DNA of 64,000 nt from an uncultured Anaerolineales bacterium (lineage in GTDB: Bacteria > Planctomycetota > Phycisphaerae > FEN-1346): NCBI GenBank assembly GCA_964397995.1, contig CAYNLG010000009.1, positions 1,089 through 65,088 of the forward strand, read 5' to 3'. Within the stretch, counting starts at the first letter, position 1; the number at the start of each line of letters is the position of its first letter. The position numbers and the translations under genes are program-made. Positions 2,714 through 62,639 of this stretch are shown piece by piece. The notes below the pieces were generated by a model that was given only the letters and a program-made list of their open reading frames with translations, did no database searches and had not been told where the DNA came from.

Positions 2714-2938
2714 ATGAGCGCCCCGCCGGACATCCAGGAGCAGTTGCGGCAGGCCATCCTGGAGGCCCCGTTCTCCCGGTACCGGTTGTCGCAGATGGCG
2801 GGTGTCTCGCAGGGCCAGCTCTCGCACTTCGTGAACCGGGACCGCAGCATCACGATGGGCACGGCCGCCAAGCTGGCGGCGGCCCTGGGGCTCTCGCTGG
2901 TGCCCCGGGGGCGGTCCCCGAGCAGCGAGGAGGCGTAG
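2714..2938 (+). CDS. XRE-family helix-turn-helix transcriptional regulator
   Basis: YRLSQMAGVSQGQLSHFVNRDRSITMGTAAKLAAALGL is a canonical Cro/C1-type HTH. 74 aa. Confidence 0.7.
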   Translation: MSAPPDIQEQLRQAILEAPFSRYRLSQMAGVSQGQLSHFVNRDRSITMGTAAKLAAALGLSLVPRGRSPSSEEA

Positions 2939-2941
2939 CCG

Positions 2942-4519
<1,578 letters not shown>

Positions 4520-5198: not shown

Positions 5199-8100
5199 CT
5201 ACGGTTTCTCGAGCTCCATCGGGTAGTTCACAAGCGCCGCGACCAGCTCCAGGCACCCGAGGCGACGGATCTCGTCGCCCTCGAGGTATCGGCGACGGAA
5301 CTCGCGGGCCATCTCGGCGCGGAGCGGCTCGGGCGCGGGGCCCATCATGAAACACAGCTCGCGGGCGCCCATCTGCCCGGCCGACCACTTCTCGGGATCG
5401 CTCGCCGGGCCCCACGGCGTGTCCGGATACAGGCCCCGACCGGTCGCGATCCATCGGGCCGAAACGAGCGGCCAGAGGATGTCCCCGCCCCGCCGCCCGC
5501 CGCGCTTGACGGCCCCGCCGGCCATCAGCGACGCCCGGCCGCCTTTCGACGCGACGTCGAAGATGAACGGCATGTCCTGGACCTGACCGGTCGCTTTCCA
5601 GCGGGCCTTGGCGGCCTCGTACTCGCGGACCAGCCACGCGTGCTTCTTCCACAGGGCCGTCGCGTACCCCGCCCGGATGGCCGGAAACCGCGGGTTGACG
5701 ACCGTCCCCACGACCTCGAGCAACAGCCGGTGGACCCCCGGTTCGAGGATCACCACCGTGCCCGACTCGATCCGCCGCCCGTGCAGGAAGACCGTCGACT
5801 GCGGGTGGCCGAAGTGCTGACCCCCGGGGATGCGGACGCACGTCGGTTCGCCGACCTCCAGCGTTGTGTAGAGGAGGCGCCGGCGCCTGGGGTCGCCCGG
5901 CGGAAAGAGGTATCTCTCCTTCGTGATGCCCGCGAGCCCCCTGAACGCCTTCTCCGAGAGGTGGCGGAAGGTGTAGTCCGCCCCGCCGAATGCGAACGTG
6001 TCGCCCGCCTCGATCCACGCGCCCTCGCGCCCGCCGAGGTCCGCAAGCACGTCCTCTTCGCCCGGCTCGACGCCACCGGCCCACAGCCACTCGGCCACGA
6101 GCCCGCCCGCCTCGAAAGGAACGGTTCGAGGCGTCGCGTCCCCCGGTGGGGTCTCGGCCTCGAGCGTCACGACCGCCGGCGGCGGGGCGGGCGGACGTTG
6201 CAGGCCGAGGCGGCCCTCCTCCCCGAGCAGCATCAGGGCGTTGGCGCCGGGCACCCCGAGGATGGAACGGCTGACCGCGTACACGCCGACCGGGCCCCAC
6301 TCGCACGAGAACGCCAGCCGCATGTGCCCCGCCGAGGCCAGCACCTGCCGCCGTTCATGCTCGGTGTACTCGGCGAATATCAGGTCCGCGGCGAACGGGT
6401 ACCGCGCCATCGGCCCGGGCAGCCGCTCCCCGTGTTCGCCCTGGTACGGCCGCTGGAGCGTGCGCGGCATGATCAGCTCGACGGCCCGCTCGCCGTGGCG
6501 ACGATCGTCGAAGACGCGGGCGAGGAACCCGTGACCCGTCGCTTGGTCGGCGCCGGCTTCCCAGTTGTTGACCCAGTCGAGCTTCGTGCGGTACAGGCGC
6601 TTGCCGGACGCCATCCGCGCCATTAGCGCCCGGAAGATCTCGCGGCCCACCGGCGTCCGGGTCCGCGCGCGGAGCTGGGCCACGTGGTGCGTGCGGAACA
6701 GCAGCCGCGGGTGCTCGTCGGGCGCCAGCGGCGGCACGTCGCCCGTGTCCCATGACGTCGGCCAGCCCGTGACCGTGGCGGGGCCTTCGCGCGGCTCGTC
6801 GTTGCACGTGCCGGTGAACCGGGCCGTCAGGCCCTTGTCCGAAGACCGCAGCTCGATCGTATATTCCGCGTAGGCCGCGTGCCGCCACAGGTCGCTGCCA
6901 AGCAGTATCTCCACGCGCAGCTTCGCCGGGTCGCCCGCCTCCCAGCCGATCACCCGGCCGCGATGGTTCCGCTTGTTGAACTTGACGGCGAACGCGTGGA
7001 AGTCCTCCTCCCACTCGCCGCCGCGCCGCGAGAACACCAGCAGCAGCGGGAACGCCCCCGAGTGATCCGGCCGGTCCGACCAGGTGATGCCGCCGTCGAG
7101 CTCGATGTGCACCACGCCGTCATCGGGCAGCGTCTCGATCCGCGTCCCCGGCCGGGCGACGTCCACCGGCCGGCCGCCGATCCGCGTCCACGCCTCGGGA
7201 CCGGGCTCGCCGCCGGGGAGGTCCGGCTCGGGCGCAGGGGTCGGCGGGGCTCGGCCGGTCCGCGACTCGATGGCCCGGCGGGCCTCGCCGACCGCCTCGT
7301 CCATCCCGGGCGCGCCCTGGCTGAGCGCGCGGCTGAGGGCCTCGGCGGTATCGGCTGAAGCGTCGCCGACGGCCCCGAGGACGGTGACCCAGGCCTTGAG
7401 CTCCTCGGGGTCGGGGTAGATCCGCCACGCCAGCAGCCCCTCGGCGACGGCCGGCCCCGCCGCCGGCCCGATCCGCGCGATCGCCGCCCGCGCCGCCGCC
7501 TCGGCCGCCTGGCCGCGCTCCTCATACACGGTCTCCTCGACGAGGACGGGCGCGGCCTCCGGCCCCATGGCGGCGAGCGTCGAGACAACCATCTCGCGCA
7601 GGCGCTCCGGCGGGTCGTCCCGCCGGCGCTGCCGCCCGCCCTCAAGCAGGTTCAGCAACGCCGGCGCCTGGTCGGCCGTCGCCACCAGGGCCATCATCCG
7701 GCCGAGGTCCAGCCGGTCGTCCTCGGACTCGATCGCACTGCAGTGCCGCAGCGCCAGCGGCGCCAGGTCCCCCTGTCGCGCCTGCACCTGTGCCTTGGCC
7801 GACGAGGCGATCGACGTCTCCGTATCGCCCAGCGCCGCGAGCAGCGCCCCGTACGCCGCCGACGCCCGCTGCATCGCGGCCTCCTCGACCGCCGCGGCGC
7901 GGACTGCCGAATCCGCGTCTCGGGCGGCGTCGGCCAGCGCCTCGGCGAGGTCGGGGTCGGCGCTGTCGTCGGGCAGTGCCCGGACGGCTGCCGCACGAAC
8001 CGCGGGACCGGCGTCGTGGAGCAGCGCGCCCAGTCCCTCCGGGCACAATCGCGCCCCCAGCGCCCCCAGCCCGCGCGCCGCCGCAAGGCGAACGCCCGCG

Positions 8101-8654
8101 TCGGGGTCCTCGGCCGCGGCTTCCAGCGCGTCGACCGCCTCCGGGCCGCCGATCGACGCCAGGGCCTCCAGCGCCGCCCGCCGGTGCGCCGGGTCCTCGG
8201 TCTTCGCGACCCAGGCCAGGTACGGGACCGCCTCGGGCCAGCCGGTCTCGCCCAGCCGCCGGGTCTCGCCCAGCCGCGTCGCGGGGTCCTTCAGGCGGGC
8301 GACCACGTCATCGGTGATCCGCGGCCGCAGCCACCACGAGCCGAGTATCACCATCCCGGTGCCCACGGCGGCCATGGCGATCAGGACCAACAGTGTCCGC
8401 AGCCAGTTCCACCCCGTCCCGTTCTCAGGCATGTCGCTCATCGCGGATCCTCTCGCTGTTGCGGGTTCCACCAGCCTCAACCCGCGAACGGCGGGAACGT
8501 ACGCGGTCTTTCTGACGTTGACCGAGACGAGGCGCTGGACGGCCGTCGACGCGATGGACCTCGACGCCGAGGACCGCGGGTTCTGGTGGTACGATTGCCC
8601 GAAGCTCGAGCACCAGCTCAACAACATCCGCCACGTCCAGCACCACGCCGCCAT
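5199..8654 (-). CDS. large membrane-anchored HEAT/PBS-lyase-repeat protein with a C-terminal domain of unknown function (possibly polysaccharide-lyase-like)
   Basis: N-terminal TM helix, then about 350 aa of HEAT-like repeats (EAVDALEAAAEDPDAGVRLAAARGLGALG...), then a roughly 600-aa non-repetitive domain. 1151 aa in total. The many opposite-strand ORFs across this span are compositional shadows. Confidence 0.6.
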   Translation of the reverse strand: MAAWCWTWRMLLSWCSSFGQSYHQNPRSSASRSIASTAVQRLVSVNVRKTAYVPAVRGLRLVEPATARGSAMSDMPENGTGWNWLRTLLVLIAMAAVGTGMVILGSWWLRPRITDDVVARLKDPATRLGETRRLGETGWPEAVPYLAWVAKTEDPAHRRAALEALASIGGPEAVDALEAAAEDPDAGVRLAAARGLGALGARLCPEGLGALLHDAGPAVRAAAVRALPDDSADPDLAEALADAARDADSAVRAAAVEEAAMQRASAAYGALLAALGDTETSIASSAKAQVQARQGDLAPLALRHCSAIESEDDRLDLGRMMALVATADQAPALLNLLEGGRQRRRDDPPERLREMVVSTLAAMGPEAAPVLVEETVYEERGQAAEAAARAAIARIGPAAGPAVAEGLLAWRIYPDPEELKAWVTVLGAVGDASADTAEALSRALSQGAPGMDEAVGEARRAIESRTGRAPPTPAPEPDLPGGEPGPEAWTRIGGRPVDVARPGTRIETLPDDGVVHIELDGGITWSDRPDHSGAFPLLLVFSRRGGEWEEDFHAFAVKFNKRNHRGRVIGWEAGDPAKLRVEILLGSDLWRHAAYAEYTIELRSSDKGLTARFTGTCNDEPREGPATVTGWPTSWDTGDVPPLAPDEHPRLLFRTHHVAQLRARTRTPVGREIFRALMARMASGKRLYRTKLDWVNNWEAGADQATGHGFLARVFDDRRHGERAVELIMPRTLQRPYQGEHGERLPGPMARYPFAADLIFAEYTEHERRQVLASAGHMRLAFSCEWGPVGVYAVSRSILGVPGANALMLLGEEGRLGLQRPPAPPPAVVTLEAETPPGDATPRTVPFEAGGLVAEWLWAGGVEPGEEDVLADLGGREGAWIEAGDTFAFGGADYTFRHLSEKAFRGLAGITKERYLFPPGDPRRRRLLYTTLEVGEPTCVRIPGGQHFGHPQSTVFLHGRRIESGTVVILEPGVHRLLLEVVGTVVNPRFPAIRAGYATALWKKHAWLVREYEAAKARWKATGQVQDMPFIFDVASKGGRASLMAGGAVKRGGRRGGDILWPLVSARWIATGRGLYPDTPWGPASDPEKWSAGQMGARELCFMMGPAPEPLRAEMAREFRRRYLEGDEIRRLGCLELVAALVNYPMELEKP

Positions 8655-8689: not shown

Positions 8690-9171
8690 TTGAACGCCAT
8701 GCGGAGCAGCCCGGGGTTCATCTCCTCGTTGGCCCCGCGGAGGGCGTTCTCGACCCAGGTGTCCCCGTACTTCCTGGCGACTTCCGTGAGGTAAATGACA
8801 GTTTTGAGCGCCTCGAGTTTTCAGAAAAAGAGGCGGAGATTGCGGTCGTCTCCGGTCCAGTATTCGAGGAGCCGGGCCGTCGTGCGCGTCACGTCCGGGT
8901 GGCCGGCGTCACGCCAAACGGCGACCTTCTCCCGGATGCGGTTGATCTGCCGGTTCTCTTCGATGCGGTCACGGGTCCATTGCGTGTCAAAGACCATCGG
9001 CCCACCGCGGCCCTTCTTCTTGGGGGCAGGGATGGGCACGAAATAGGAACTGGGGCGGCGCTCGTCGGCGATCTTGTCCGTGATCCCCTGGTCGGCGAAC
9101 TCGAAGTGGCGCGTGGGTTCCGCGAAGGGGGAGTTGATGAGGGGGTTCTCGATGACGACTTGGGCTGCCAT
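8690..9171 (-). pseudogene. type III restriction enzyme Res / DEAD-box helicase N-terminal remnant (in-frame TGA, degenerate Walker A, truncated)
   Basis: MAAQVVIENPLINSPFAEPTRHFEF...LLEYWTGDDRNLRLFF-TGA-KLEALKTVIYLTEVARKYG...FKMATGKAEPH. The N-terminal signature is conserved. TGA replaces the expected Cys in FFCQ, a single-nucleotide change from TGC/TGT. Motif I reads MATGKAEP rather than MATGTGKT, and nothing recognisable follows. Confidence 0.5.
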
Positions 9172-55270: not shown

Positions 55271-56467
55271 GTGGCGAGCAAGGCTTGGGACATCCCGAAG
55301 GGCCATCGGCTCTTCACCAGCGAAGCGGTCACCGGCGGCCACCCGGACAAGATGGCCGACCAGATCTCCGACGCCGTCCTCGACGCCATGATCCGGCAGG
55401 ACCCCCGCAGCCGCGTGGCCTGCGAAACCATGGTCACCACCGGCATGGTCGTCGTCGCCGGCGAAATCACCACCGAGGCCCGCGTCGACATCCCCGACGT
55501 CGTCCGCGCCACCATCAAGGACATCGGCTACACCGACGCCGACATGGGCTTCGACCACGAACACTGTGCCGTCTTGGTGGCGCTGGACCGCCAGAGCCCG
55601 GACATTGCGCGCGGCGTGAACGCGGGCGAGGACAAGGAACAGGGCGCCGGCGACCAGGGCATCATGTTCGGCTTCGCCTGCCGCCAGACACCCCAGCTCA
55701 TGCCCATGCCCATCCAGCTTGCCCACCAGCTCTGCAACCGCCTGACCCAGGTCCGCCGCGAGGGCGGCCTCCCGTGGCTCCGCCCCGACGGCAAGAGCCA
55801 GGTCACCGTCCAGTACGACGCCGAGGGCAAGGTCGTCCGCATCCACACCGTCGTCATCTCGACCCAGCACGCCGATTCGGTCTCGAACGACGAGCTCCAC
55901 CGCGGCATCAAGGATCAGATCATCGAGCCGGTCATCCCAAGCGAGTACCTTGACGACGACACCATCTACCACATCAACCCGACCGGCCGCTTCGTCGTCG
56001 GCGGGCCCCAGGGCGACTGCGGCCTGACGGGACGCAAGATCATCGTCGACACCTACGGCGGTATGGGCAGCCACGGCGGCGGGGCCTTCTCCGGAAAGGA
56101 CCCCTCCAAGGTCGACCGCACCGCCGCCTACATGGCACGCCACGTCGCCAAGAACATCGTCGCCGCCGACCTCGCCCAGCGCGTCGAGGTCCAGCTCTCC
56201 TACGCTATCGGCGTCGCCGACGCCCTCAGCGTCCACGCCGACACCGGCGGCACCGGCGTCCTGGCCGACGAGGACCTCGCCGCCGTCATCCGCGACGTCT
56301 TCCCCCTGAAGCCCCGCGAGATGATCGAGTACCTGGACCTGCTGCGGCCGATCTTCCGCAAGACCGCCGAGGGCGGCCACTTCGGCCGCGAACTCCCCGA
56401 GTTCACCTGGGAGGGCCTCGACAAGGTCGACGAAGTCAAACGGGCCGCCAAGGCCCGCGGGGCGTAG
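55271..56467 (+). CDS. metK: S-adenosylmethionine synthetase
   Basis: GTG start, [41 protein letters not shown]. Confidence 0.95.
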
Positions 56468-56516
56468 CGCCCGCGAAGAGCGGCCATCCGACGCGACCGC
56501 TGCAAGGGGAGGGACC

Positions 56517-57932
56517 ATGCCCTCAGCCGAGCGCGCGCCGTCTGCCCCCGACCGGCCGAACATCGTCTTCGTCTTCGCCGATGACTGGGGCTGGGGCGAC
56601 CTCGGCTGCTACGGCCACCCGTACGTCCGCACGCCCCATCTCGACGCCCTGGCCGCCGAGGGGCTCCGCTTCACCCAGTTCTACGTCTGCTCCGGCGTCT
56701 GCTCGCCCAGCCGCGCCGCCGTCCTGACGGGCCGGTTCCCCGCCCACTGGGGCATCCACGGCCACTTCGCCACGCGCGCGCACAACGCCGAGCGAGGCAT
56801 GCCGAACTGGCTGGACCCGGCGGCCGTGACGTACACGCGCCTCCTGCAGAGCGCCGGCTACGCCGTCGGCCACTTCGGCAAGTGGCACCTCGGCCACGGC
56901 GACGGCGCCCCGCCGCCCGCGGACTACGGCATCGACGTCTCCCGCGTCACCACCGGCAACGGCCCGCGCTTCGACTGGCACGATGTCTACGGCGACCGCG
57001 TCCCTTTCTTCCCGCGGACCGGCCTCGACACCCTCGCCGGGCCGCGCAGCCGCTCCAGCGAGCGCATCGTCGACGAGACCCTCGCCTTCATCGAGGCCCG
57101 CCGCGACGGGCCGTTCCTCGTCAACGTCTGGCTCAACGACACCCACGCCACCCTCGACCCCGACGAGACCCAGCTCGAGCCCTACCGGCACCTGATGCCC
57201 GTCGGCGTGGAGCACAAGCACGTCGGCGCCAAGGCCATCTATGCCGCCACCGTCACCGAGGCCGACCGCCAGGTGGGCCGCTTGGTCGCGCGGCTCGACG
57301 AGCTGGGCCTGGGCGAGAACACCGTCGTCATCTTCTCGGCCGACAACGGGCCGGAGGACATCGTCATCGGCAACGCCTCGCACAGCGGCGTCGGCAGTCC
57401 CGGTCCGTTCCGCGGCCGCAAACGCAGCCTGTACGAAGGCGGCGTGCGGACGCCGTTCATCGTCCGCTGGCCCGGCCGCGCCCCCGCCGGCCGCGTTGAT
57501 GACGATACGCCGCTCTGCGGCGTGGACCTGCTGCCGACCTTCTGCGCCCTGGTTGGCGCCGACGTCCCGGCGGCCGCCGCCTGCCAGGGCGAGGACATGA
57601 CCGAGGCGCTGTGCGGTCGGCCGCGGGGCCGCACCACGCCGCTGTTCTGGGAGTGGCGGTTCCACGTTGTCGGCCACGTCCTCAACCGCAGCCCGGCCCT
57701 GGCCGTCCGCCGCGACAACTGGAAGCTGCTCGTCAACCCCGACGGCAGCCGCGCCGAACTCTACGACGTGCCGTCCGACCCGACGGAGCTCGCGAACCGC
57801 GCCGCCGCCGAGCCGGGCGTCGTCCGCCGCCTCCGCGACGAGGTCATGGCCTGGCACGAGACGCTGCCCGAAGGGCCGTGGGCCGATGGCGCCGGCTCCA
57901 ACGCCTACCCCTGGCCGCGCGCCTCGGCATAG
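56517..57932 (+). CDS. sulfatase (formylglycine-dependent arylsulfatase family)
   Basis: PNIVFVFADDWGWGDLGCYGH and the CSPSRAAVLTGR active-site C-x-P-x-R motif. Confidence 0.85.
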   Translation: MPSAERAPSAPDRPNIVFVFADDWGWGDLGCYGHPYVRTPHLDALAAEGLRFTQFYVCSGVCSPSRAAVLTGRFPAHWGIHGHFATRAHNAERGMPNWLDPAAVTYTRLLQSAGYAVGHFGKWHLGHGDGAPPPADYGIDVSRVTTGNGPRFDWHDVYGDRVPFFPRTGLDTLAGPRSRSSERIVDETLAFIEARRDGPFLVNVWLNDTHATLDPDETQLEPYRHLMPVGVEHKHVGAKAIYAATVTEADRQVGRLVARLDELGLGENTVVIFSADNGPEDIVIGNASHSGVGSPGPFRGRKRSLYEGGVRTPFIVRWPGRAPAGRVDDDTPLCGVDLLPTFCALVGADVPAAAACQGEDMTEALCGRPRGRTTPLFWEWRFHVVGHVLNRSPALAVRRDNWKLLVNPDGSRAELYDVPSDPTELANRAAAEPGVVRRLRDEVMAWHETLPEGPWADGAGSNAYPWPRASA

Positions 57933-57964
57933 GCGCAGACCGGCGTGCGCGGCATTGCCGTTGC

Positions 57965-58050
57965 CGTATGTGGCACGGGCTTCCCGCCCGTGAGTTTGGC
58001 TTGCATGCCGTTCTGCTGTCGGCGTATGTGGCACGGGCTTCCCGCCCGTG
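57965..58050. repeat. two identical 28-bp direct repeats (CGTATGTGGCACGGGCTTCCCGCCCGTG), each containing a 7-bp hairpin, 58 bp apart
   Basis: Copies at 57965-57992 and 58023-58050. Each carries CACGGGC-TTCCC-GCCCGTG. A third TGTGGCAC core occurs at 58097-58104. They lie in the convergent intergenic region between the sulfatase and the radical-SAM gene. Confidence 0.7.
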
Positions 58051-58181
58051 GCCTCCGCTTTCTTTGGTCTTGCCGCGCCATGGACTGCGGTGCCTCTGTG
58101 GCACCGCCATGGCTGTCGTCTGATGTCTTGCCGTTTCCACACCCGGCACGGCCCGCCGACGCGATGGTCATTGCGCCATGC

Positions 58182-59309
58182 CTAACTGAACGTCACGTAC
58201 GCGGCCGCCTTCGCCAGGCGTCTGCCCGGCCGCCCGAGAGCGTCCATCCGCGCGATCCGCCCGCCGCCCTTCCGCAGGGCCAGGATGTGCCTCACCGTCA
58301 CGGGGCCGAACCCCGGGACGCGCAAAAGGTCACGCCGCGCCGCCCGGTTCACGTTGAGCGGCCACCGCTCCGGATGCCGCCGGGCCCAGAGTTCCTTCGG
58401 GTCCGCGTCCAGGGGCAGGGCTCCCGACCCGTCGAAGCCGATCTCCTCGTCCGTGAACCCGTATTTGCGGATCAGGAAGTCGACTTGGTACAGCCGGTGT
58501 TCCCGCGTCGCCAAGGCCCGCGGGTCCGGCCCGCCCGTCCGCTCGCCCGGCAGCGCCGCGTCGCCCAGGCCCTTCTGGTACGCGCTGAAGTAGACCCGCG
58601 CCAGGCCCAGCCGCCGGTACAGGCCGAAGGTCGCCCGGACGATCTCGGCGTCGGTCTCCGTCGATGCGCCGACGATGAACTGCGTCATCTGCCGCACCCG
58701 CGGGAACCGGCTCCCGCGCCCCGTCAGGCCGCTGATCAGCCGGACCGGCCGCACGATGTCGCGGGCGTAGTCCTTGCGGCTGGAGAGGGCGGCCATGGCC
58801 GCACGCGTCGGCACCTCGACATTGACGCTGACGGTGTTGGCGACCGCGCAGCACGCCTCGATGGCCGCGTCGCTCGACCCCGGTAGGACCTTCAGGTGAA
58901 GGTACCCGCCGTAGGCGTGCTTCCGCCGCAGGATCTCCGCCACCGCGACCATGCGGTCCATCGTGTGGTCCGGCCCCCGCACGACGCCGGAGGAGAGGAA
59001 GAGGCCGTGGACCTGGCCGCGCCGGACGTAGGCCATGAACGCGTCGGCGACCTCCTCGGGCCGGAGCGTGCAGCGTCGGGTGTCGCGGTCGCGCCGCAGG
59101 GGGCAGTACCGGCAATCGTTGACACACGCGCTTGACAGGAGCGTCTTCAGCATGACGCTCTGCCCGCCGCGCGGAAGCGACGTCGGGTAGACCCACAGCC
59201 CGTCGTCCGACCGCTGCCGGTGGTCCGGCCCGCTCCGCGTCCCGCACGCGCACGAGAGGTCGTACCGTGCCTCGTCGGCCAGCACCTTCAGCTTGTCGGT
59301 GGTATCCAT
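58182..59309 (-). CDS. putative DNA modification/repair radical SAM protein with C-terminal helix-hairpin-helix (TIGR03916-like)
   Basis: CVNDCRYCPLRRD (CxxxCxxC) radical-SAM cluster, a TIM-barrel body, and C-terminal LLRVPGFGPVTVRHILALRKGG. Confidence 0.75.
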   Translation of the reverse strand: MDTTDKLKVLADEARYDLSCACGTRSGPDHRQRSDDGLWVYPTSLPRGGQSVMLKTLLSSACVNDCRYCPLRRDRDTRRCTLRPEEVADAFMAYVRRGQVHGLFLSSGVVRGPDHTMDRMVAVAEILRRKHAYGGYLHLKVLPGSSDAAIEACCAVANTVSVNVEVPTRAAMAALSSRKDYARDIVRPVRLISGLTGRGSRFPRVRQMTQFIVGASTETDAEIVRATFGLYRRLGLARVYFSAYQKGLGDAALPGERTGGPDPRALATREHRLYQVDFLIRKYGFTDEEIGFDGSGALPLDADPKELWARRHPERWPLNVNRAARRDLLRVPGFGPVTVRHILALRKGGGRIARMDALGRPGRRLAKAAAYVTFS

Positions 59310-59324
59310 GGTGCGCTCAGGGCC

Positions 59325-59939
59325 TCATACAAGCGCCCCCTCCGTCAGGGACCGCACCCCTCGCCCGGCTCGGAGCCCACGCGGGCCACGCAAGGTATGT
59401 CTCGCCGACCGATGGCGCCGGGCGCTCCGCCGGACCGGCCGTCTCCAAGGAGAGCGCGACGGCATCCGCCGGGTTCGCCCGGGCCTCCGCAACCGTATCG
59501 CCCTGGCTTGCCACGTCCAGGCTGGGGCAGAGGGCGACGTAGGCGTGCCTTCGCGGTAGATTACCGCGGCGACCACCCTCTGGGCCCAAGGCACCCCCTT
59601 ACCCGTCGGGCGCAGCGGGCCGCGGCAAGTACGCAGCCGCCCGCGGGCCTGTGCTGTGTGTCGCCAAGACGGCCTCTTCCAGCGTGGAGCCAACGAGCCG
59701 TACCGGCGGATCATCTCGCGCATGAACTCGCGCGACGGGTCGCCGCGCCACCCCTCCGTCACACACTCATGCGCGGCCGCTACCTCGCGGAGCGTCTCGT
59801 CCGTCCACGGGTGTGGCGGCAGGTGGGGGGCGTCCTGGTAAAGGTCCTCGCGGCGGGGGGCCTCGGCCGGGTCGACCGGCCCGTGGTGCAGGCAGTCCAT
59901 GTGGATGTAGCCCTCGTCCATCGGCCGGATGTCGAGCAT
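59325..59939 (-). pseudogene. upstream partner ORF of the radical-SAM gene, possibly a UDG-like (TIGR03915-type) partner, apparently disrupted by a frameshift near 59700 and an in-frame TAA near 59600
   Basis: The first ~85 codons have GC3 above 90%. After ~59700, GC3 in that frame falls to ~70%, while a second frame carries high GC3 from 59700 to 59320, interrupted by a TAA. That second frame contains a CPSLDV segment that may correspond to the family-4 UDG HPS motif. Confidence 0.3.
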
Positions 59940-60002
59940 TGAGGGCGCAGACCTCCCTCGCGGGCGCGCGGACGGCGCACGGCCCGGGTGACGCGTGGGG
60001 CC

Positions 60003-60602
60003 TCAGTACTTACGCAACACGCCGATGACGACGCCCTGGATGCGGCACTCGTCGACGTAGATCGGCTCCATCTCCGGGTTGGCCGGCTGGAGCCGGATGC
60101 GGCCGCCCTCCTTGTAGAACTTCTTGAGGGTGGCGTCGCCGTCCTGGAGCAGGGCGACGACCGTCTCGCCGTTGCGGGCGGTGGTCCGCTTCTCGACGAT
60201 CACGTAGTCGCCGTCGCGGATCTGCTCGTCGATCATCGAGGTGCCGCGGACCTGGAGGACGAACGTCTCGCCCGGCCGCCCCCCGAAGAGGCTCTCGACG
60301 TCCAGCACCTCCGGGTCTTCGACGGCCTCGATGGGGCTGCCGGCGGCGATGCGGCCCACCAGGGGCAGCTGGCCGGCGTCGGGGGCGAACTGCGGCGCCA
60401 GCGAGATGGTCCGCGTCCGCGTGGGCTCCCGCGAGAGCGCGCCCTTGGCCTCCAGGGCCTCGATGTGCTCGAAGACCGTGGGCCGCGACACGCCCAGGTG
60501 GTCGGCAATCTCCTGCATCGTCGGCGCATACTCGTACTCGGCCGTGTAGTCCCGGATGAACTCGACGATTTCGAGCTGCCGGGGGGTGAGGTGGATCTCC
60601 AT
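60003..60602 (-). CDS. lexA: LexA repressor
   Basis: N-terminal wHTH (LTPRQLEIVEFI...PTMQEIADHLGVSRPTVFEHIEALEAKG) and S24 peptidase domain (QVRGTSM ... VIVEKRTTARNGETVVA ... TLKKF). The 376-aa ORF extension upstream is spurious. Confidence 0.9.
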   Translation of the reverse strand: MEIHLTPRQLEIVEFIRDYTAEYEYAPTMQEIADHLGVSRPTVFEHIEALEAKGALSREPTRTRTISLAPQFAPDAGQLPLVGRIAAGSPIEAVEDPEVLDVESLFGGRPGETFVLQVRGTSMIDEQIRDGDYVIVEKRTTARNGETVVALLQDGDATLKKFYKEGGRIRLQPANPEMEPIYVDECRIQGVVIGVLRKY

Positions 60603-61538
60603 GACCAGGGTCCTTAGGTTCGCGTTCAGGGTCCGATCTATCCGGCATCGGGCCGCCCGGGCGCGGCACCTCCACCCCCGCCCGGTGTTCGCCGGACGGA
60701 AGGCCGCCCCCCGGCAGGGGGGCGCCGAGGCACCGACCGGGCCGGGAGCCCGCGGCGCGCATGCACCGGCCGACAGCGCCCCCCGGCGCCCCGGCTGGTG
60801 CGGGAGAACGGCCAGGCCGCATGTCATACGTTCGGTCGGAGGGTCAGCCACCGCGAAGGGAGGGGCCGGAGTCCGGGGAGGACCCCGGCCCGCCTTCATG
60901 GCTGCGTCGCCGGTGGGTGCGGCAACGCGTGAAATCGCGCGATCCGGGCCGACGGGATGCTGCGGGGGCCGGTCGGGTGGGGAGAGGTCGACCGGTCCGG
61001 GCCCGTGTGGGGGACGGGTCCGGCCGCGAGGGACGGCCACGCCGGCGGGCCGCGGGTGGGGACCGCGGGGGCCGGGGGGTCGCGCTGGCTGACGCGGGGG
61101 CTCGCCGATCGCCGTGCCGGCGAAGCCCCTCAAAGGTCTTGATGAACCTGGGCGAGCGGAGCGGGGCGGGGCGAGGCGGCCGGGCTGGGAAGGGGCACGG
61201 GATAACTCCCCAGCCGCGGCCCGCGCTCACCTTCACCGTGTCCGTCGCGGCCGCGCCTGCCCGGGGAGCCTGCTTGACCCTCCGGTGGGCGGCCGGTATA
61301 AGCGCCTGAGCCGTTCACGGGATGCCAAGGATCGTTGCCGCTCGTCGTTAGGGCAATGATAGCCTAACATGCCCCGTACGTCAACCCGAAAATCGGGAAA
61401 TCCGGCCCGGCCCTTTAGCGAAATCCGTCGTCGGAATCCGAACGAATCCCTAACATCTTGTCCCGGCCGGACTTACGTTCGTGAAAAATCTTCCCGCGCC
61501 CGGCGAAAAAGTCGCCGCGACGCCCCCCGGGGAGGCCC

Positions 61539-62639
61539 ATGGCCCGACTTCGCGCGACCGTCCGCGACCGTCTCGACGCCTTTCGCCGCGCCGTCCGTCG
61601 CGGCGGGGCACGCTCGGCGCTCGTCACCCACCCGACCGACATCCGGTACCTCTCGGGCTTCGCCGGCGACGATTCGTGGCTGTTCGTCACGCCGTCGGCG
61701 GCGACGCTCGTCACGGACTTCCGGTACGCCGAGCAGGCCGAGCGCGAGTGCCCGGGCGTCGGGCTCATCGTCCGCCCGGGACCCATCGCGGAGGCGTTGG
61801 CGGCCGAGGTCCGGCGGCGCGGTCTCACGGCCCTGGCCTTCGACAGCGAGCGGGTCAGCGTGGCCGAGCGTGAGCGCCTGGGCGCGGCCCTGGCGGGGGT
61901 TGAGCTGGTGCCGCTGGCGTCGCCGACGCGGGCGCTCCGCATGCACAAGGACGCGACCGAGCGCCGGGCCGTCGTGCGGGCCATCGAGGTGGCCGAAACG
62001 GCCTTCGCGGCGTTCCGGAAGGCGATCCGCCAGGGGATGACGGAACGCCGCCTGGCCGCCGAACTCGACGGGCGGCTCCGCCTGGCGGGGGCGGAGGCCC
62101 CGGCGTTTCCGACCATCTGCGCGATCGACGCCTCGGCCGCCATGCCCCACGCCCGCCCGGGCGAGGCCCGCCTGAAGCGCGGTTCGGTGCTCCTGGTGGA
62201 CTTCGGGGCCCGGGTTGAGGGGTACGTGTCCGACTTGACACGCTGCCTGGTGGCCGGTAGAATCCCGGCCCACGTCCGCGAGGTTTACCGGGCGGTTCTT
62301 GAAGCACAGGCGGCGGGTATCGCCCGCGCCGGCCCCGGTGTGAGCCTGCGGGACGTGGACGCCGCCGCCCGCCGCGTCATCGAGGACGCCGGCTTCGGCG
62401 ACGCCTTCGGCCACGGGCTGGGCCACGGCATCGGCCTGGACGTGCACGAGCCGCCGGCGGTGAGCCCGCGGAGCGCGGCCGAGGCGGTGCTGGAACCGGG
62501 CATGGTGGTGACGGTGGAGCCGGGGGTGTACCTCCGGGGGCGGTTCGGCATCCGGATCGAAGACGACGTGCTCGTCACCCGCCGCGGGTGCCGGGTGCTC
62601 TCGAGCCTGGCGAAGGACCTGGAGGCGATGGTCCTGTAG
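61539..62639 (+). CDS. pepP: Xaa-Pro aminopeptidase / M24 family metallopeptidase
   Basis: Pita-bread fold metal ligands: VDFGARVEGYVSDLTR, HGLGHGIGLDVHE, VEPGVY, IRIEDDV. Confidence 0.85.
   Translation: MARLRATVRDRLDAFRRAVRRGGARSALVTHPTDIRYLSGFAGDDSWLFVTPSAATLVTDFRYAEQAERECPGVGLIVRPGPIAEALAAEVRRRGLTALAFDSERVSVAERERLGAALAGVELVPLASPTRALRMHKDATERRAVVRAIEVAETAFAAFRKAIRQGMTERRLAAELDGRLRLAGAEAPAFPTICAIDASAAMPHARPGEARLKRGSVLLVDFGARVEGYVSDLTRCLVAGRIPAHVREVYRAVLEAQAAGIARAGPGVSLRDVDAAARRVIEDAGFGDAFGHGLGHGIGLDVHEPPAVSPRSAAEAVLEPGMVVTVEPGVYLRGRFGIRIEDDVLVTRRGCRVLSSLAKDLEAMVL

What the first reader, a model, noticed from the sequence alone, without database searches (positions are those of the whole stretch)
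58182..60700. lexA-linked radical-SAM / UDG-like DNA-repair gene pair in which the UDG-like partner looks broken
The radical-SAM gene (CxxxCxxC plus C-terminal HhH) matches the putative DNA modification/repair pair that normally travels with a UDG-superfamily partner and is often SOS-associated. Here it is adjacent to lexA and co-oriented with it. The upstream partner ORF keeps strong coding signal for ~85 codons. The signal then shifts to another frame, which is interrupted by a TAA. This suggests the partner has decayed while the radical-SAM enzyme is intact. This is the third nonsense- or frameshift-disrupted accessory gene in the window; the integrase has TAG and res has TGA, so each uses a different stop codon. 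That pattern argues for genuine decay rather than codon reassignment.
Basis: partly seen in the sequence, partly recalled or inferred. Interest (0 to 1): 0.55.

Follow-up and report, generated by a model that had tools for sequence, protein, structure and literature searches.

The report
lexA–radical-SAM operon with acetyltransferase gene stump
The "broken UDG partner" is the first 84 codons of an unrelated GNAT acetyltransferase gene, stranded between lexA and an intact radical-SAM gene that, in this group of Planctomycetota, travels with lexA and has no UDG-like partner next to it.

Summary
lexA (60003-60602) and a TIGR03916-like radical-SAM/HhH gene (58182-59309) are intact and lie on the minus strand. 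They are 693 nt apart.

The ORF between them has no UDG, DUF4130 or TIGR03915 similarity in any frame. Its first 84 codons (59939-59688) match the N-terminus of a 250-265-aa planctomycete GNAT acetyltransferase family at 60-70% identity. A family HMM matches only positions 1-83 of 261. The catalytic core is absent from all six frames, so this is a truncation, not a frameshift plus nonsense codon.

The remaining 378 nt (59687-59310) have no homologs, non-coding-like codon usage and no unusual RNA fold. Two independent single-run assemblies are 100% identical across the locus, so an assembly error is unlikely.

Relatives show a conserved lexA-rSAM linkage: 10 of 14 informative loci with LexA at least 70% identical. 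The spacer between the two genes ranges from 15 nt to 2.8 kb and sometimes holds unrelated cargo genes. None of the relatives has a TIGR03915 partner next to the rSAM gene.

A conserved promoter with GTTAG-N6-GTTAG repeats lies about 750 nt upstream of lexA. It is followed by a leader with covarying hairpins.

Verdict: an ordinary gene relic inside a modestly novel, partnerless variant of a known SOS-linked repair gene.

The parts
61439..61454 (-). Distal candidate LexA operator O2 (GTTAGGGATTCGTTCG), a direct repeat of the GTTAG-N6-GTTAG type
   Evidence: One mismatch to the pattern. It starts 75 nt upstream of O1, the same 74-75 nt spacing seen in L035, L038, L040, L043, L045 and L046. Its function is inferred; no binding data exist.
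61356..61384 (-). Sigma-70-like promoter TTGACG-17-TATCAT with candidate LexA operator O1 (61379..61364, GTACGGGGCATGTTAG) between the -35 and -10 hexamers
   Evidence: This is the only promoter-like site in 57800-61600 (10 of 12 matches; 0.0 expected in shuffles). The same architecture, TTGACGTTAGG-N5-GTTAGGnTAnnAT, lies 404-891 nt upstream of the lexA start in 14 related loci. It also lies directly upstream of the rSAM gene in L006 and L008.
60603..61355 (-). 753-nt lexA leader with no gene-like ORF. It has a conserved sequence block B1 (61333..61265) and conserved hairpins B2 (61228..61173) and B3 (60927..60905 and 60891..60863).
   Evidence: Alignment of 14 leaders. For B2, 6 of 15 pairs show compensatory changes, 97% of cells are paired against 45-59% when the partner is slid, and 0 of 500 shuffles reach the covariation score. 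For B3, 9 of 18 pairs show compensatory changes. No Rfam family matches.
60003..60602 (-). lexA, intact (199 aa)
   Evidence: TIGR00498 at 187.8 bits; Pfam LexA_DNA_bind plus Peptidase_S24. The Ala87-Gly88 cleavage site, Ser122 and Lys160 are present. GC3 is 0.9-1.0.
59688..59939 (-). Stump of a GNAT-family acetyltransferase gene: start codon plus 84 codons, corresponding to residues 1-84 of homologs that are 250-265 aa long
   Evidence: It is 60-70% identical to P0001-P0017 over their residues 1-84 only. An HMM of 28 full-length homologs matches positions 1-83 of 261 (E 4e-43) and nothing else in six frames. Codon usage is gene-like at +0.40 per codon. The acetyl-CoA motif of the homologs lies at about aa 157-209 and is missing here.
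59310..59687 (-). 378-nt spacer of unknown origin. It holds the non-coding-like tail of ORF204 (ends 59325), the second-frame ORF 59317-59589 and the TAA at 59601-59599.
   Evidence: Codon log-odds is -0.54 (ORF204 tail) and -0.26 (second frame) per codon. It has no protein homologs. It has no DNA similarity to spacers of related loci or to the rest of the window. The RNA fold z-score is 0.11. It has no Rfam hit, and no promoter, terminator or SOS-box match.
58182..59309 (-). Intact radical-SAM/HhH gene (375 aa) of a TIGR03916-like, partnerless planctomycete clade
   Evidence: Domain evidence. It keeps all 100+ invariant columns of a 50-sequence clade alignment. The AF2 model has pLDDT 88.4 and a radical-SAM barrel fold. 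More than 120 clusters at 60-74% identity exist, mostly from Phycisphaerae/Planctomycetota.
57956..58050 (+). Two 37-nt direct repeats (57956-57992 and 58014-58050, 92% identical), each with a GC hairpin CACGGGC-TTCCC-GCCCGTG. They lie in the convergent gap between the sulfatase gene and the rSAM gene and are probably terminator or REP-like elements marking the operon end.
   Evidence: Repeat family D3. One copy is scored as terminator-like. Similar TGGCAC-containing hairpins were seen by eye in the flanks of L005, L010 and L011.

Best explanation
The region is the downstream half of a lexA operon that is conserved in one lineage of Planctomycetota (Phycisphaerae-like MAGs).

Proposed transcription (inferred). 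Transcription starts at a LexA-box-bearing promoter about 780 nt upstream of lexA. It runs through a structured leader, then lexA, then a spacer of variable length, and ends after a radical-SAM enzyme with a C-terminal helix-hairpin-helix DNA-binding domain.

The enzyme. It is a diverged, shorter relative of TIGR03916/COG4277. In this lineage it is encoded without the TIGR03915/UDG-like partner that accompanies canonical members.

The spacer. In this genome the lexA-rSAM spacer is 693 nt; in the most similar syntenic relatives it is 72-184 nt. It contains the first 84 codons of a GNAT-family acetyltransferase gene followed by 378 nt of sequence with no detectable relatives. The acetyl-CoA-binding catalytic core of the GNAT is gone. 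The stump is therefore most likely the dead remnant of a cargo gene that once sat in this insertion-prone spacer and lost its 3' two-thirds by deletion or rearrangement.

What is shown: the gene identities, the truncation, the reproducibility of the sequence, the conserved lexA-rSAM linkage, the absence of an adjacent partner, and the conserved promoter motif.

What is inferred: co-transcription of lexA and the rSAM gene, LexA binding to the GTTAG repeats, SOS induction, a DNA-lesion substrate for the enzyme, and non-function of the stump.
For: Identity of the stump:
- All 33 database hits to the frame-joined query are proteins related to the 250-265-aa family (five are shorter, 124-229 aa). 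Several carry PF00583 or are named GNAT by their sources.
- tblastn aligns only their residues 1-84, to 59939-59688.
- The family HMM matches positions 1-83 of 261 (E 4e-43) and nothing else in six frames with all filters off.
- No second copy exists in the window.
- The Pfam GNAT motif of intact homologs lies at aa 157-209.

Not UDG:
- No Pfam or NCBIfam hit at E <= 1 in any frame.
- phmmer with a verified TIGR03915 protein finds nothing in the window.

Sequence is real:
- Logan assemblies of SRR7048219 and SRR7048224 are 100% identical to window 56032-60476 and 56083-60235.

Operon conservation:
- lexA lies directly upstream of, and co-oriented with, the rSAM gene in L004, L005, L009, L010, L011, L013 and L029/L030.
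- The same is true in 10 of 14 informative metagenome loci whose LexA is at least 70% identical, and in none of the loci whose LexA is 63% identical or less.
- L029 shares the window's neighbourhood: accC-accB-pepP | lexA-rSAM | X | metK.

Spacer variability and cargo:
- Spacers range from 15 nt to 2.8 kb. Inserted genes include DinB_2, DUF72, a GIY-YIG-like gene and unknowns.

Partnerless:
- No TIGR03915, DUF4130 or UDG gene lies next to the rSAM gene in any planctomycete-type locus.
- The canonical L012 pair scores 702.6 bits (TIGR03916) and 199 bits (TIGR03915).

SOS link:
- The same promoter-embedded GTT[AC]G-N6-GTTAG repeat lies upstream of lexA in the window and in 14 relatives, and directly upstream of rSAM genes that lack an adjacent lexA (L006, L008).
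- L009 has dinB immediately after the rSAM gene.
- The literature predicts LexA control of the TIGR03916-TIGR03915 operon in Verrucomicrobia, Alphaproteobacteria and Bacteroidetes (PMC4951493, PMC8565304).
Against: - The stump shows no decay within its 84 codons: the start codon is intact, codon usage is gene-like and all family-conserved residues are kept. Either the truncation is recent or the stump is still under selection.
- No intact GNAT was found between lexA and the rSAM gene in any relative. The idea of a former cargo gene truncated in place has no direct ancestor to point to. A fragment could equally have arrived already truncated.
- Co-transcription rests only on orientation and on the absence of a recognisable promoter, terminator or operator in the spacer.
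- The operator assignment is comparative only. About half of the related rSAM genes that lack an adjacent lexA carry a different promoter palindrome.
- Whether a TIGR03915/UDG partner exists elsewhere in this genome cannot be seen from a 64-kb window.
Confidence: 0.8

Rival explanations
1. One reading: the ORF between lexA and the rSAM gene is the UDG-superfamily/TIGR03915 partner of the radical-SAM enzyme, inactivated by a frameshift and a TAA codon.
For: The rSAM gene belongs to the family that is normally paired with TIGR03915 (PMC4951493). A second frame with a mild GC3 bump and a TAA does exist.
Against: - No UDG, DUF4130 or TIGR03915 similarity in any frame.
- The conserved part is unambiguously a GNAT N-terminus.
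- The canonical partner lies downstream of the rSAM gene.
- No relative of this rSAM clade has an adjacent partner.
- The second frame has non-coding-like codon usage.
Confidence: 0.02
2. Assembly or sequencing artefact: the organism really has an intact gene here, and the break is a chimeric join or an indel error.
For: The window comes from a metagenome-type assembly. Other disrupted genes occur in the same window.
Against: - Two independent single-run assemblies are base-for-base identical across the whole lexA-rSAM interval.
- Indel errors cannot explain the complete absence of GNAT positions 84-261 from all six frames.
- Synteny on both sides of the break is as in relatives: lexA upstream, rSAM downstream.
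Confidence: 0.03
3. The stump is not dead. ORF204, or just its 84-aa N-terminal domain, is expressed with lexA as a small SOS-induced protein with a new role.
For: The ATG is intact 63 nt after the lexA stop. The ORF stays open for 204 codons and ends 15 nt before the rSAM start. The first 84 codons have undecayed, gene-like codon usage and retain all family-conserved residues.
Against: - The 120-codon tail has strongly non-coding codon usage (-0.54 per codon).
- In a 72% GC genome long open frames arise by chance; many spurious ORFs appear.
- No protein with this architecture exists among 5.8 billion database sequences.
- The gene callers behind the Logan assemblies did not call it.
- It is unique to this genome among about 30 related loci.
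Confidence: 0.1
4. The 378-nt segment 59310-59687 is a functional element in its own right, such as an internal promoter or regulatory region for the rSAM gene or an orphan small protein in the second frame, and not junk left by a rearrangement.
For: There is a mild GC3 elevation in one frame. That frame's ORF ends 7 nt before the rSAM ATG.
Against: - Codon log-odds is -0.26 per codon.
- There are no homologs.
- There is no promoter-like, terminator-like or SOS-box match.
- The fold z-score is 0.11.
- It is not conserved in any related spacer.
Confidence: 0.07

Closest known systems
TIGR03916-TIGR03915 (COG4277-COG1573) putative DNA base-excision/modification operon, predicted to be LexA-regulated in Verrucomicrobia, Alphaproteobacteria and Bacteroidetes (PMC4951493, PMC8565304)
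   Same: The enzyme is a radical-SAM protein with CxxxCxxC, N-terminal conserved cysteines and a C-terminal HhH. TIGR03916 is by far its best family match (E 1.8e-84). It is associated with the SOS system.
   Different: - It scores below the family's curated cutoff (284 against 343.5 bits) and lacks about 40 C-terminal profile positions.
- No TIGR03915/UDG partner lies in the operon, either here or in about 27 related loci.
- The gene is physically fused into the lexA operon, not merely preceded by a LexA box.
lexA-led SOS operons such as lexA-imuA-imuB-dnaE2 (established knowledge; cited in PMC4951493)
   Same: lexA is the first gene of an autoregulated operon whose downstream gene or genes act on damaged DNA.
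   Different: - The downstream gene is a radical-SAM/HhH enzyme, not a translesion-synthesis cassette.
- The promoter is 0.4-0.9 kb upstream, behind a structured leader.
- The lexA-to-effector spacer accumulates unrelated cargo.
SplB/COG1533 radical-SAM 'DNA repair photolyase', a recurrent SOS-regulon member (PMC4951493)
   Same: It is an SOS-linked radical-SAM enzyme presumed to act on DNA lesions.
   Different: It is a different family: no SplB/COG1533 model matched. Fold search gives only generic radical-SAM barrels such as LipA, HydG, HydE, ThiH and BioB at TM about 0.45.
GNAT (PF00583) acetyltransferases: a 250-265-aa subfamily from Planctomycetota/Phycisphaerae with a conserved N-terminal 'IRPMDE.YI..DCLH.GP' region
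   Same: Residues 1-84 are 60-70% identical and align to HMM positions 1-83.
   Different: Only the N-terminal third is present and the acetyl-CoA-binding core is absent. Intact members are never next to lexA or the rSAM gene.
Alphaproteobacterial LexA box GTTC-N7-GTTC (direct repeat; own knowledge) and the Verrucomicrobia TGTTC-N4-TGTTC tandem-repeat motif (own recollection of PMC4951493; the sequence was not seen in the passages read)
   Same: The candidate operator is a direct repeat, GTT[AC]G-N6-GTTAG, with 11-nt start-to-start spacing like the alphaproteobacterial box. It is embedded in the lexA promoter.
   Different: The half-site sequence differs (GTTAG). It is not experimentally tested. 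The SOS response had not been documented for Planctomycetes as of PMC4951493, and no later paper was found in the library searched.

Membership tests
TIGR03916 (putative DNA modification/repair radical SAM protein, COG4277) | Whole-protein HMM score at or above the curated cutoff (343.5 bits) | tested here: not met
   284.3 bits, E 1.8e-84, profile positions 2-375 of 415. Clade relative L004 scores 295.1 bits. Canonical L012 scores 702.6 bits over positions 1-415.
TIGR03916 (putative DNA modification/repair radical SAM protein, COG4277) | Radical-SAM CxxxCxxC cluster motif in the N-terminal half | tested here: met
   C62, C66 and C69, invariant in 50 clade members. PF04055 scores 31.8 bits, above the 29.5 cutoff. 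The AF2 model is a radical-SAM barrel.
TIGR03916 (putative DNA modification/repair radical SAM protein, COG4277) | C-terminal helix-hairpin-helix DNA-binding region | tested here: met
   PF12836 HHH_3 at residues 318-358, E 1.5e-4, although 22.2 bits is below the gathering cutoff of 27. There are weak ComEA matches. Clade members are named 'predicted DNA-binding helix-hairpin-helix protein' by JGI.
TIGR03916 (putative DNA modification/repair radical SAM protein, COG4277) | Encoded in an operon with a TIGR03915 (DUF4130 +/- UDG) partner ('arranged always in operon configuration', PMC4951493) | tested here: not met
   No partner lies next to the rSAM gene in the window or in any planctomycete-type locus. 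The rest of the genome cannot be tested.
TIGR03915 / UDG family 4 (claimed for the ORF at 59325-59939) | Profile similarity to TIGR03915, DUF4130 (PF13566) or UDG (PF03167) in some frame | tested here: not met
   No family matched at E <= 1 for any of the three frames of 59300-59990. phmmer with the verified L012 TIGR03915 protein gave E > 5.
GNAT acetyltransferase (PF00583), planctomycete 250-265-aa subfamily | Homology to the family's N-terminal region | tested here: met
   HMM of 28 full-length members, positions 1-83, E 4e-43. Identity is 60-70%.
GNAT acetyltransferase (PF00583), planctomycete 250-265-aa subfamily | Acetyl-CoA-binding core (motif A region, about aa 157-209 of the homologs) | tested here: not met
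   HMM positions 84-261 are not found in any of six frames of 59250-60050 with all filters off. The ORF is therefore a gene fragment, not a functional member.
LexA (TIGR00498) | HMM score above cutoff, N-terminal winged HTH plus S24 peptidase domain, and Ala-Gly cleavage site with Ser/Lys dyad | tested here: met
   187.8 bits against a cutoff of 110.95; PF01726 plus PF00717. A87-G88, S122 and K160 are present.
LexA (SOS) regulon membership of the operon | A LexA-binding site in the promoter, bound by the cognate LexA | tested here: inconclusive
   A conserved direct-repeat motif lies inside the promoter upstream of lexA in the window and 14 relatives, and upstream of the rSAM gene in L006 and L008. 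With one mismatch allowed, about 5 matches are expected by chance in 261 kb (my estimate), but 9 of 10 observed fall in these upstream regions. No binding or expression data exist.

The most novel reading that the evidence does not exclude
In this Phycisphaerae-like lineage the SOS master operon has an unusual build. A LexA-box promoter (GTTAG-N6-GTTAG, two operators 74-75 nt apart) drives a 0.4-0.9-kb structured RNA leader that matches no described family. The leader has at least three covarying hairpins with invariant C-rich loops. After it come lexA and a partner-independent TIGR03916-like radical-SAM/HhH enzyme. On this reading the enzyme works on damaged DNA without the UDG-like protein thought to be obligatory for the family. 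The lexA-rSAM spacer would act as a landing pad for SOS-co-expressed cargo genes, of which the GNAT stump is a decayed example.
Probability: 0.4. Interest if true: 0.6.

Novelty: new variant of a known kind. Interest (0 to 1): 0.33.

Why it matters
For the finding as written, the value is a correction. There is no decayed UDG partner here, so the window should not be used as an example of partner loss by mutation. The broken ORF is an ordinary gene fragment.

What remains is modestly useful in three ways.

1. It shows that a large planctomycete clade of the uncharacterised TIGR03916/COG4277 DNA-repair radical-SAM family is encoded without an adjacent TIGR03915/UDG partner. The family description treats that partner as universal. 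If the partner is also missing genome-wide, it would mean the radical-SAM enzyme has a self-sufficient activity.

2. The tight lexA-rSAM operon, together with the shared promoter motif, gives the first comparative handle on an SOS regulon and LexA operator in Planctomycetota. The 2016 literature says the SOS response had not been documented in that phylum.

3. The conserved structured leader upstream of lexA is a candidate new regulatory RNA that can be tested directly.

Tried and rejected
- UDG/TIGR03915 identity of the upstream ORF. Pfam and NCBIfam on three frames gave nothing at E <= 1. Rejected.
- Simple frameshift model. I joined the two frames and searched 5.8 billion proteins, ran tblastn with all 33 hits and ran a family HMM with filters off on six frames. 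Only residues 1-84 are present. Rejected in favour of truncation.
- Internal deletion bringing the GNAT motif A region into the second frame. I considered this because 'LVGSTLEEAVLA' looks superficially like motif A. The HMM gives no support. Rejected.
- Second GNAT copy or a TIGR03915/UDG gene elsewhere in the window. None found by tblastn, HMM, phmmer or a motif scan. These are weak tests for UDG.
- Origin of 59310-59687. blastn and tblastx against all related loci, their spacers and the rest of the window gave only GC-rich noise. Rfam gave nothing. The RNA fold z-score is 0.11. The origin stays unexplained.
- GNAT as a conserved member of the SOS operon. Contexts of 7 intact homologs (L016-L024) show no lexA or rSAM gene, and no GNAT appears in the 80 lexA loci. 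Rejected.
- Palindromes such as CACCCG-N8-CGGGTG as the LexA box of this genome. They are not enriched in the window: 11 matches against 17.6 expected. The motif is a real conserved promoter element only in other lineages (L001, L003, L025, L027).
- Specific structural relative for the enzyme, such as spore photoproduct lyase. Sequence search against the PDB and Foldseek against the PDB gave only generic radical-SAM barrels.
- Consensus fold for leader block B1. RNAalifold finds none.
- Whole-window Pfam annotation by concatenated pseudo-proteins. I prepared the sequences but did not run the search, because inspection of the translations showed no candidate.

Full report
**1. What is in the sequence**

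The window is 72% GC, and codon position 3 is about 90-100% GC in real genes. Three minus-strand features lie in the same reading frame:
- lexA at 60003-60602;
- a 204-codon ORF at 59325-59939;
- a 375-codon radical-SAM ORF at 58182-59309.

LexA is a full member of TIGR00498 (187.8 bits against a cutoff of 110.95). It has LexA_DNA_bind and Peptidase_S24 domains, the Ala87-Gly88 cleavage site, and Ser122 and Lys160.

The radical-SAM protein has these features:
- CVNDCRYC at residues 62-69;
- a Radical_SAM match above the Pfam cutoff;
- an HHH_3 match at 318-358 (E 1.5e-4, below the gathering score).

Its best NCBIfam match is TIGR03916 (E 1.8e-84). At 284.3 bits this is below the curated cutoff of 343.5, and it covers only profile positions 2-375 of 415.

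**2. The ORF between lexA and the rSAM gene is a GNAT stump, not a UDG-like partner**

None of the three minus-strand frames of 59300-59990 matches any Pfam or NCBIfam model at E <= 1.

It returned 33 hits. Most are 250-265 aa long and come from Planctomycetota/Phycisphaerae metagenomes. Several carry PF00583 or are named 'GNAT family N-acetyltransferase'.

The homology is confined to the N-terminus:
- tblastn of all 33 hits against 59201-60100 aligns only their residues 1-84, to 59939-59688, at 44-69% identity. Nothing significant appears in any frame for residues 85-260.
- A profile HMM of the 28 full-length homologs, run with all filters off on the six frames of 59250-60050, matches positions 1-83 of 261 (E 4e-43) and nothing else.
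- In intact homologs the Pfam GNAT match (motif A region) lies at residues 157-209. The catalytic core is therefore missing entirely.

The lesion is a truncation or replacement after codon 84, not a frameshift followed by a nonsense codon.

**3. The 'second frame' and the rest of the spacer**

I trained a codon-usage log-odds model on the window's long genes. Per-codon scores are:

| Segment | Score per codon |
|---|---|
| The 84-codon stump | +0.40 |
| Real genes | mean 0.51, 5th percentile 0.30 |
| Tail of ORF204 | -0.54 |
| Second frame (59320-59589) | -0.26 |
| Off-frame windows, 95th percentile | 0.08 |

The GC3 bump (0.83-0.86) and the TAA at 59601-59599 are real. The frame is nevertheless not gene-like. 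It has no homologs, even though it was part of the query.

The 378 nt at 59310-59687 are otherwise featureless:
- They show no similarity to the spacers or flanks of related loci, or to the rest of the window.
- They have no Rfam match.
- They contain no promoter-like, terminator-like or SOS-box site.
- Their RNA fold energy is indistinguishable from shuffles (z 0.11).

Their origin is unexplained.

**4. Artefact check**

The exact rSAM protein is found on two Logan single-run assemblies, SRR7048219 and SRR7048224. Their contigs are 100% identical to window 56032-60476 and 56083-60235, with no gaps. Both span the entire lexA-rSAM interval.

An assembly chimera or an indel error is therefore unlikely. 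Neither could remove 178 HMM positions from all six frames.

**5. Comparative context**

*The rSAM clade.* The protein belongs to a large clade of more than 120 clusters at 60-74% identity. Members are 372-442 aa long, mostly 373-400 aa, and come mostly from Phycisphaerae, Planctomycetota or Brocadiia. Many are named 'predicted DNA-binding helix-hairpin-helix protein'. The window's copy keeps all 100+ invariant columns of a 50-member alignment.

*The canonical pair.* A canonical family member from a Lachnospiraceae genome (L012) scores 702.6 bits against TIGR03916. It is followed downstream by a 283-aa protein scoring 199 bits against TIGR03915 and matching DUF4130.

*No partner in the clade.* No planctomycete-type locus has such a neighbour. 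This holds for 12 genome loci, 4 further long-contig contexts and 10 metagenome loci.

*lexA linkage.* Instead, lexA lies directly upstream and is co-oriented:
- in L004, L005, L009, L010, L011, L013 and L029/L030;
- in 10 of 14 informative metagenome loci whose LexA is at least 70% identical to this one;
- in none of the loci with more distant LexA, 63% identity or less.

L029 shares the whole neighbourhood with the window: accC-accB-pepP | lexA-rSAM | X | metK (window genes).

*The spacer.* The lexA-rSAM spacer is 15-184 nt in seven loci. In others it is 0.3-2.8 kb and holds unrelated genes: DinB_2 in L010, DUF72 in L009, a GIY-YIG-like ORF in L034, and unknowns in L005, L011, L039 and L048.

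*GNAT context.* GNAT genes occur in none of these spacers. Seven intact GNAT homologs examined in their own contexts are never next to lexA or the rSAM gene.

The simplest reading is that the spacer is insertion-prone and that this genome carries the remains of one such insertion.

**6. How the operon probably works** (shown versus inferred)

*Promoter and operators (shown).* The only sigma-70-like promoter in 57800-61600 is TTGACG-17-TATCAT at 61384-61356 on the minus strand.
- Between its hexamers lies GTACG-N6-GTTAG (O1).
- A second site, GTTAG-N6-GTTCG (O2), starts 75 nt further upstream.
- The same architecture, TTGAC-GTTAGG-N5-GTTAGG-nTAnnAT, lies 404-891 nt upstream of the lexA start in 14 relatives. 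It is often accompanied by a second site 74-75 nt upstream.
- GTT[CT]G-N6-GTTAG variants occur in more distant lexA loci.
- The motif also sits directly upstream of the rSAM gene in L006 and L008, which lack an adjacent lexA.

*Operator identity (inferred).* The geometry, a direct repeat with 11-nt spacing, matches the alphaproteobacterial GTTC-N7-GTTC SOS box (own knowledge). I infer that this is the LexA operator and that lexA and the rSAM gene are co-transcribed and damage-induced. This is not shown.

*Supporting context.* In L009 the rSAM gene is followed by dinB. The literature predicts LexA control of the TIGR03916-TIGR03915 operon in Verrucomicrobia, Alphaproteobacteria and Bacteroidetes (PMC4951493, PMC8565304).

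*The enzyme.* The AF2 model (pLDDT 88.4) is a radical-SAM barrel. Its closest solved folds are generic: LipA, HydG, HydE, ThiH and BioB, at TM about 0.45. No solved structure is close by sequence. I infer that reductive SAM cleavage generates a 5'-deoxyadenosyl radical that acts on a DNA lesion or base positioned by the HhH domain. The substrate is unknown.

**7. Side observation: a structured leader**

The 753 nt between the promoter and lexA contain no gene-like ORF. They do contain blocks conserved across 14 loci:
- Block B2 (61228-61173) is a hairpin with an invariant CCCGUGCC loop. Six of its 15 pairs show compensatory changes. 97% of cells are paired, against 45-59% when the partner column is slid. 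None of 500 shuffles reaches its covariation score. G-U pairs are tolerated on this strand.
- Block B3 has two hairpins (60927-60905 and 60891-60863), with compensatory changes in 9 of 18 pairs.
- Block B1 is conserved in sequence but has no consensus fold.

No Rfam family matches, either here or in four related loci.

**8. Comparison with what is known, and verdict**

The closest known system is the LexA-regulated TIGR03916-TIGR03915 (COG4277-COG1573) operon. This locus shares the enzyme type and the SOS association. It fails two membership criteria: the curated score cutoff and the adjacent partner. I therefore describe it as a partnerless, lexA-fused variant of that kind, not as a member of the canonical pair.

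The 'broken partner' is a GNAT gene fragment, which is an ordinary relic.

From a quick translation, there is an in-frame stop in the integrase N-terminus, and an in-frame stop plus loss of the downstream part in a type III res-like N-terminal fragment. I did not pursue this.

Interest for the finding as written is low. The operon variant, the candidate operator and the leader raise it modestly.

Noticed in passing
window 61356-61454 (-); also L010, L029, L033-L047 upstream of lexA; L006 about 5961 and L008 about 5917 upstream of the rSAM gene: A conserved promoter, TTGAC-GTTAGG-N5-GTTAGG-nTAnnAT, lies 0.4-0.9 kb upstream of the lexA start. It is often paired with a second GTTAG-N6-GTTAG site 74-75 nt further upstream. 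This is a candidate LexA operator for this Planctomycetota lineage. The SOS response had not been documented in that phylum as of PMC4951493.
   Followed up: partly
window 60603-61355 (-): B1 61333-61265, B2 hairpin 61228-61173, B3 hairpins 60927-60905 and 60891-60863: The 400-890-nt leader between the SOS-box promoter and lexA has no gene-like ORF. It has conserved blocks and three hairpins with compensatory base changes and invariant C-rich loops (CCCGUGCC, CCCCAC). No Rfam family matches. It may be a new structured regulatory RNA or an SOS-induced ncRNA.
   Followed up: partly
L001 about 5790, L003 about 5900, L025 about 4910, L027 about 4900 (upstream of rSAM genes that lack an adjacent lexA): A different, strongly conserved promoter, TTGACACCCGnCAnnTGAnGGGTGTAnnATG, has a palindrome (CACCCG-N8-CGGGTG) between the -35 and -10 hexamers. 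It could be an operator for another regulator or for a LexA with different specificity. It is not enriched in the window.
   Followed up: partly
window 57956-57992 and 58014-58050 (+): Two 37-nt direct repeats (92% identical), each holding a GC hairpin preceded by TGGCAC, lie in the convergent gap between the sulfatase gene and the rSAM gene. Similar TGGCAC-hairpin elements recur in the flanks of L005, L010 and L011. They look REP-like or terminator-like.
   Followed up: no
window 8821-9171 (-) and 2900-4519 (+): A type III restriction (res)-like N-terminal fragment has an in-frame stop after '...NLRLFF' and then loses the rest of the gene. The adjacent 1151-codon ORF (5199-8654) appears to be an unrelated protein with HEAT-like repeats. 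The integrase has an in-frame stop between '...AFKDKG' and 'SHEFGKK...'. These were seen only by translation.
   Followed up: no
lexA-rSAM spacers of L005, L009, L010, L011, L034, L039, L048: The spacer between lexA and the rSAM gene holds different small genes in different genomes: DinB_2, DUF72, a GIY-YIG-like ORF on the opposite strand, and several unknowns. This suggests an insertion hotspot whose cargo would be co-expressed with the SOS operon.
   Followed up: partly
L020 330-2005: The GNAT family to which the stump belongs occurs as two tandem paralogs (about 45-50% identical) in one metagenome contig. The family has a distinctive conserved N-terminal region (IRPMDE.YI..DCLH.GP ... PPHPW.DET) that no Pfam or NCBIfam model covers.
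   Followed up: no
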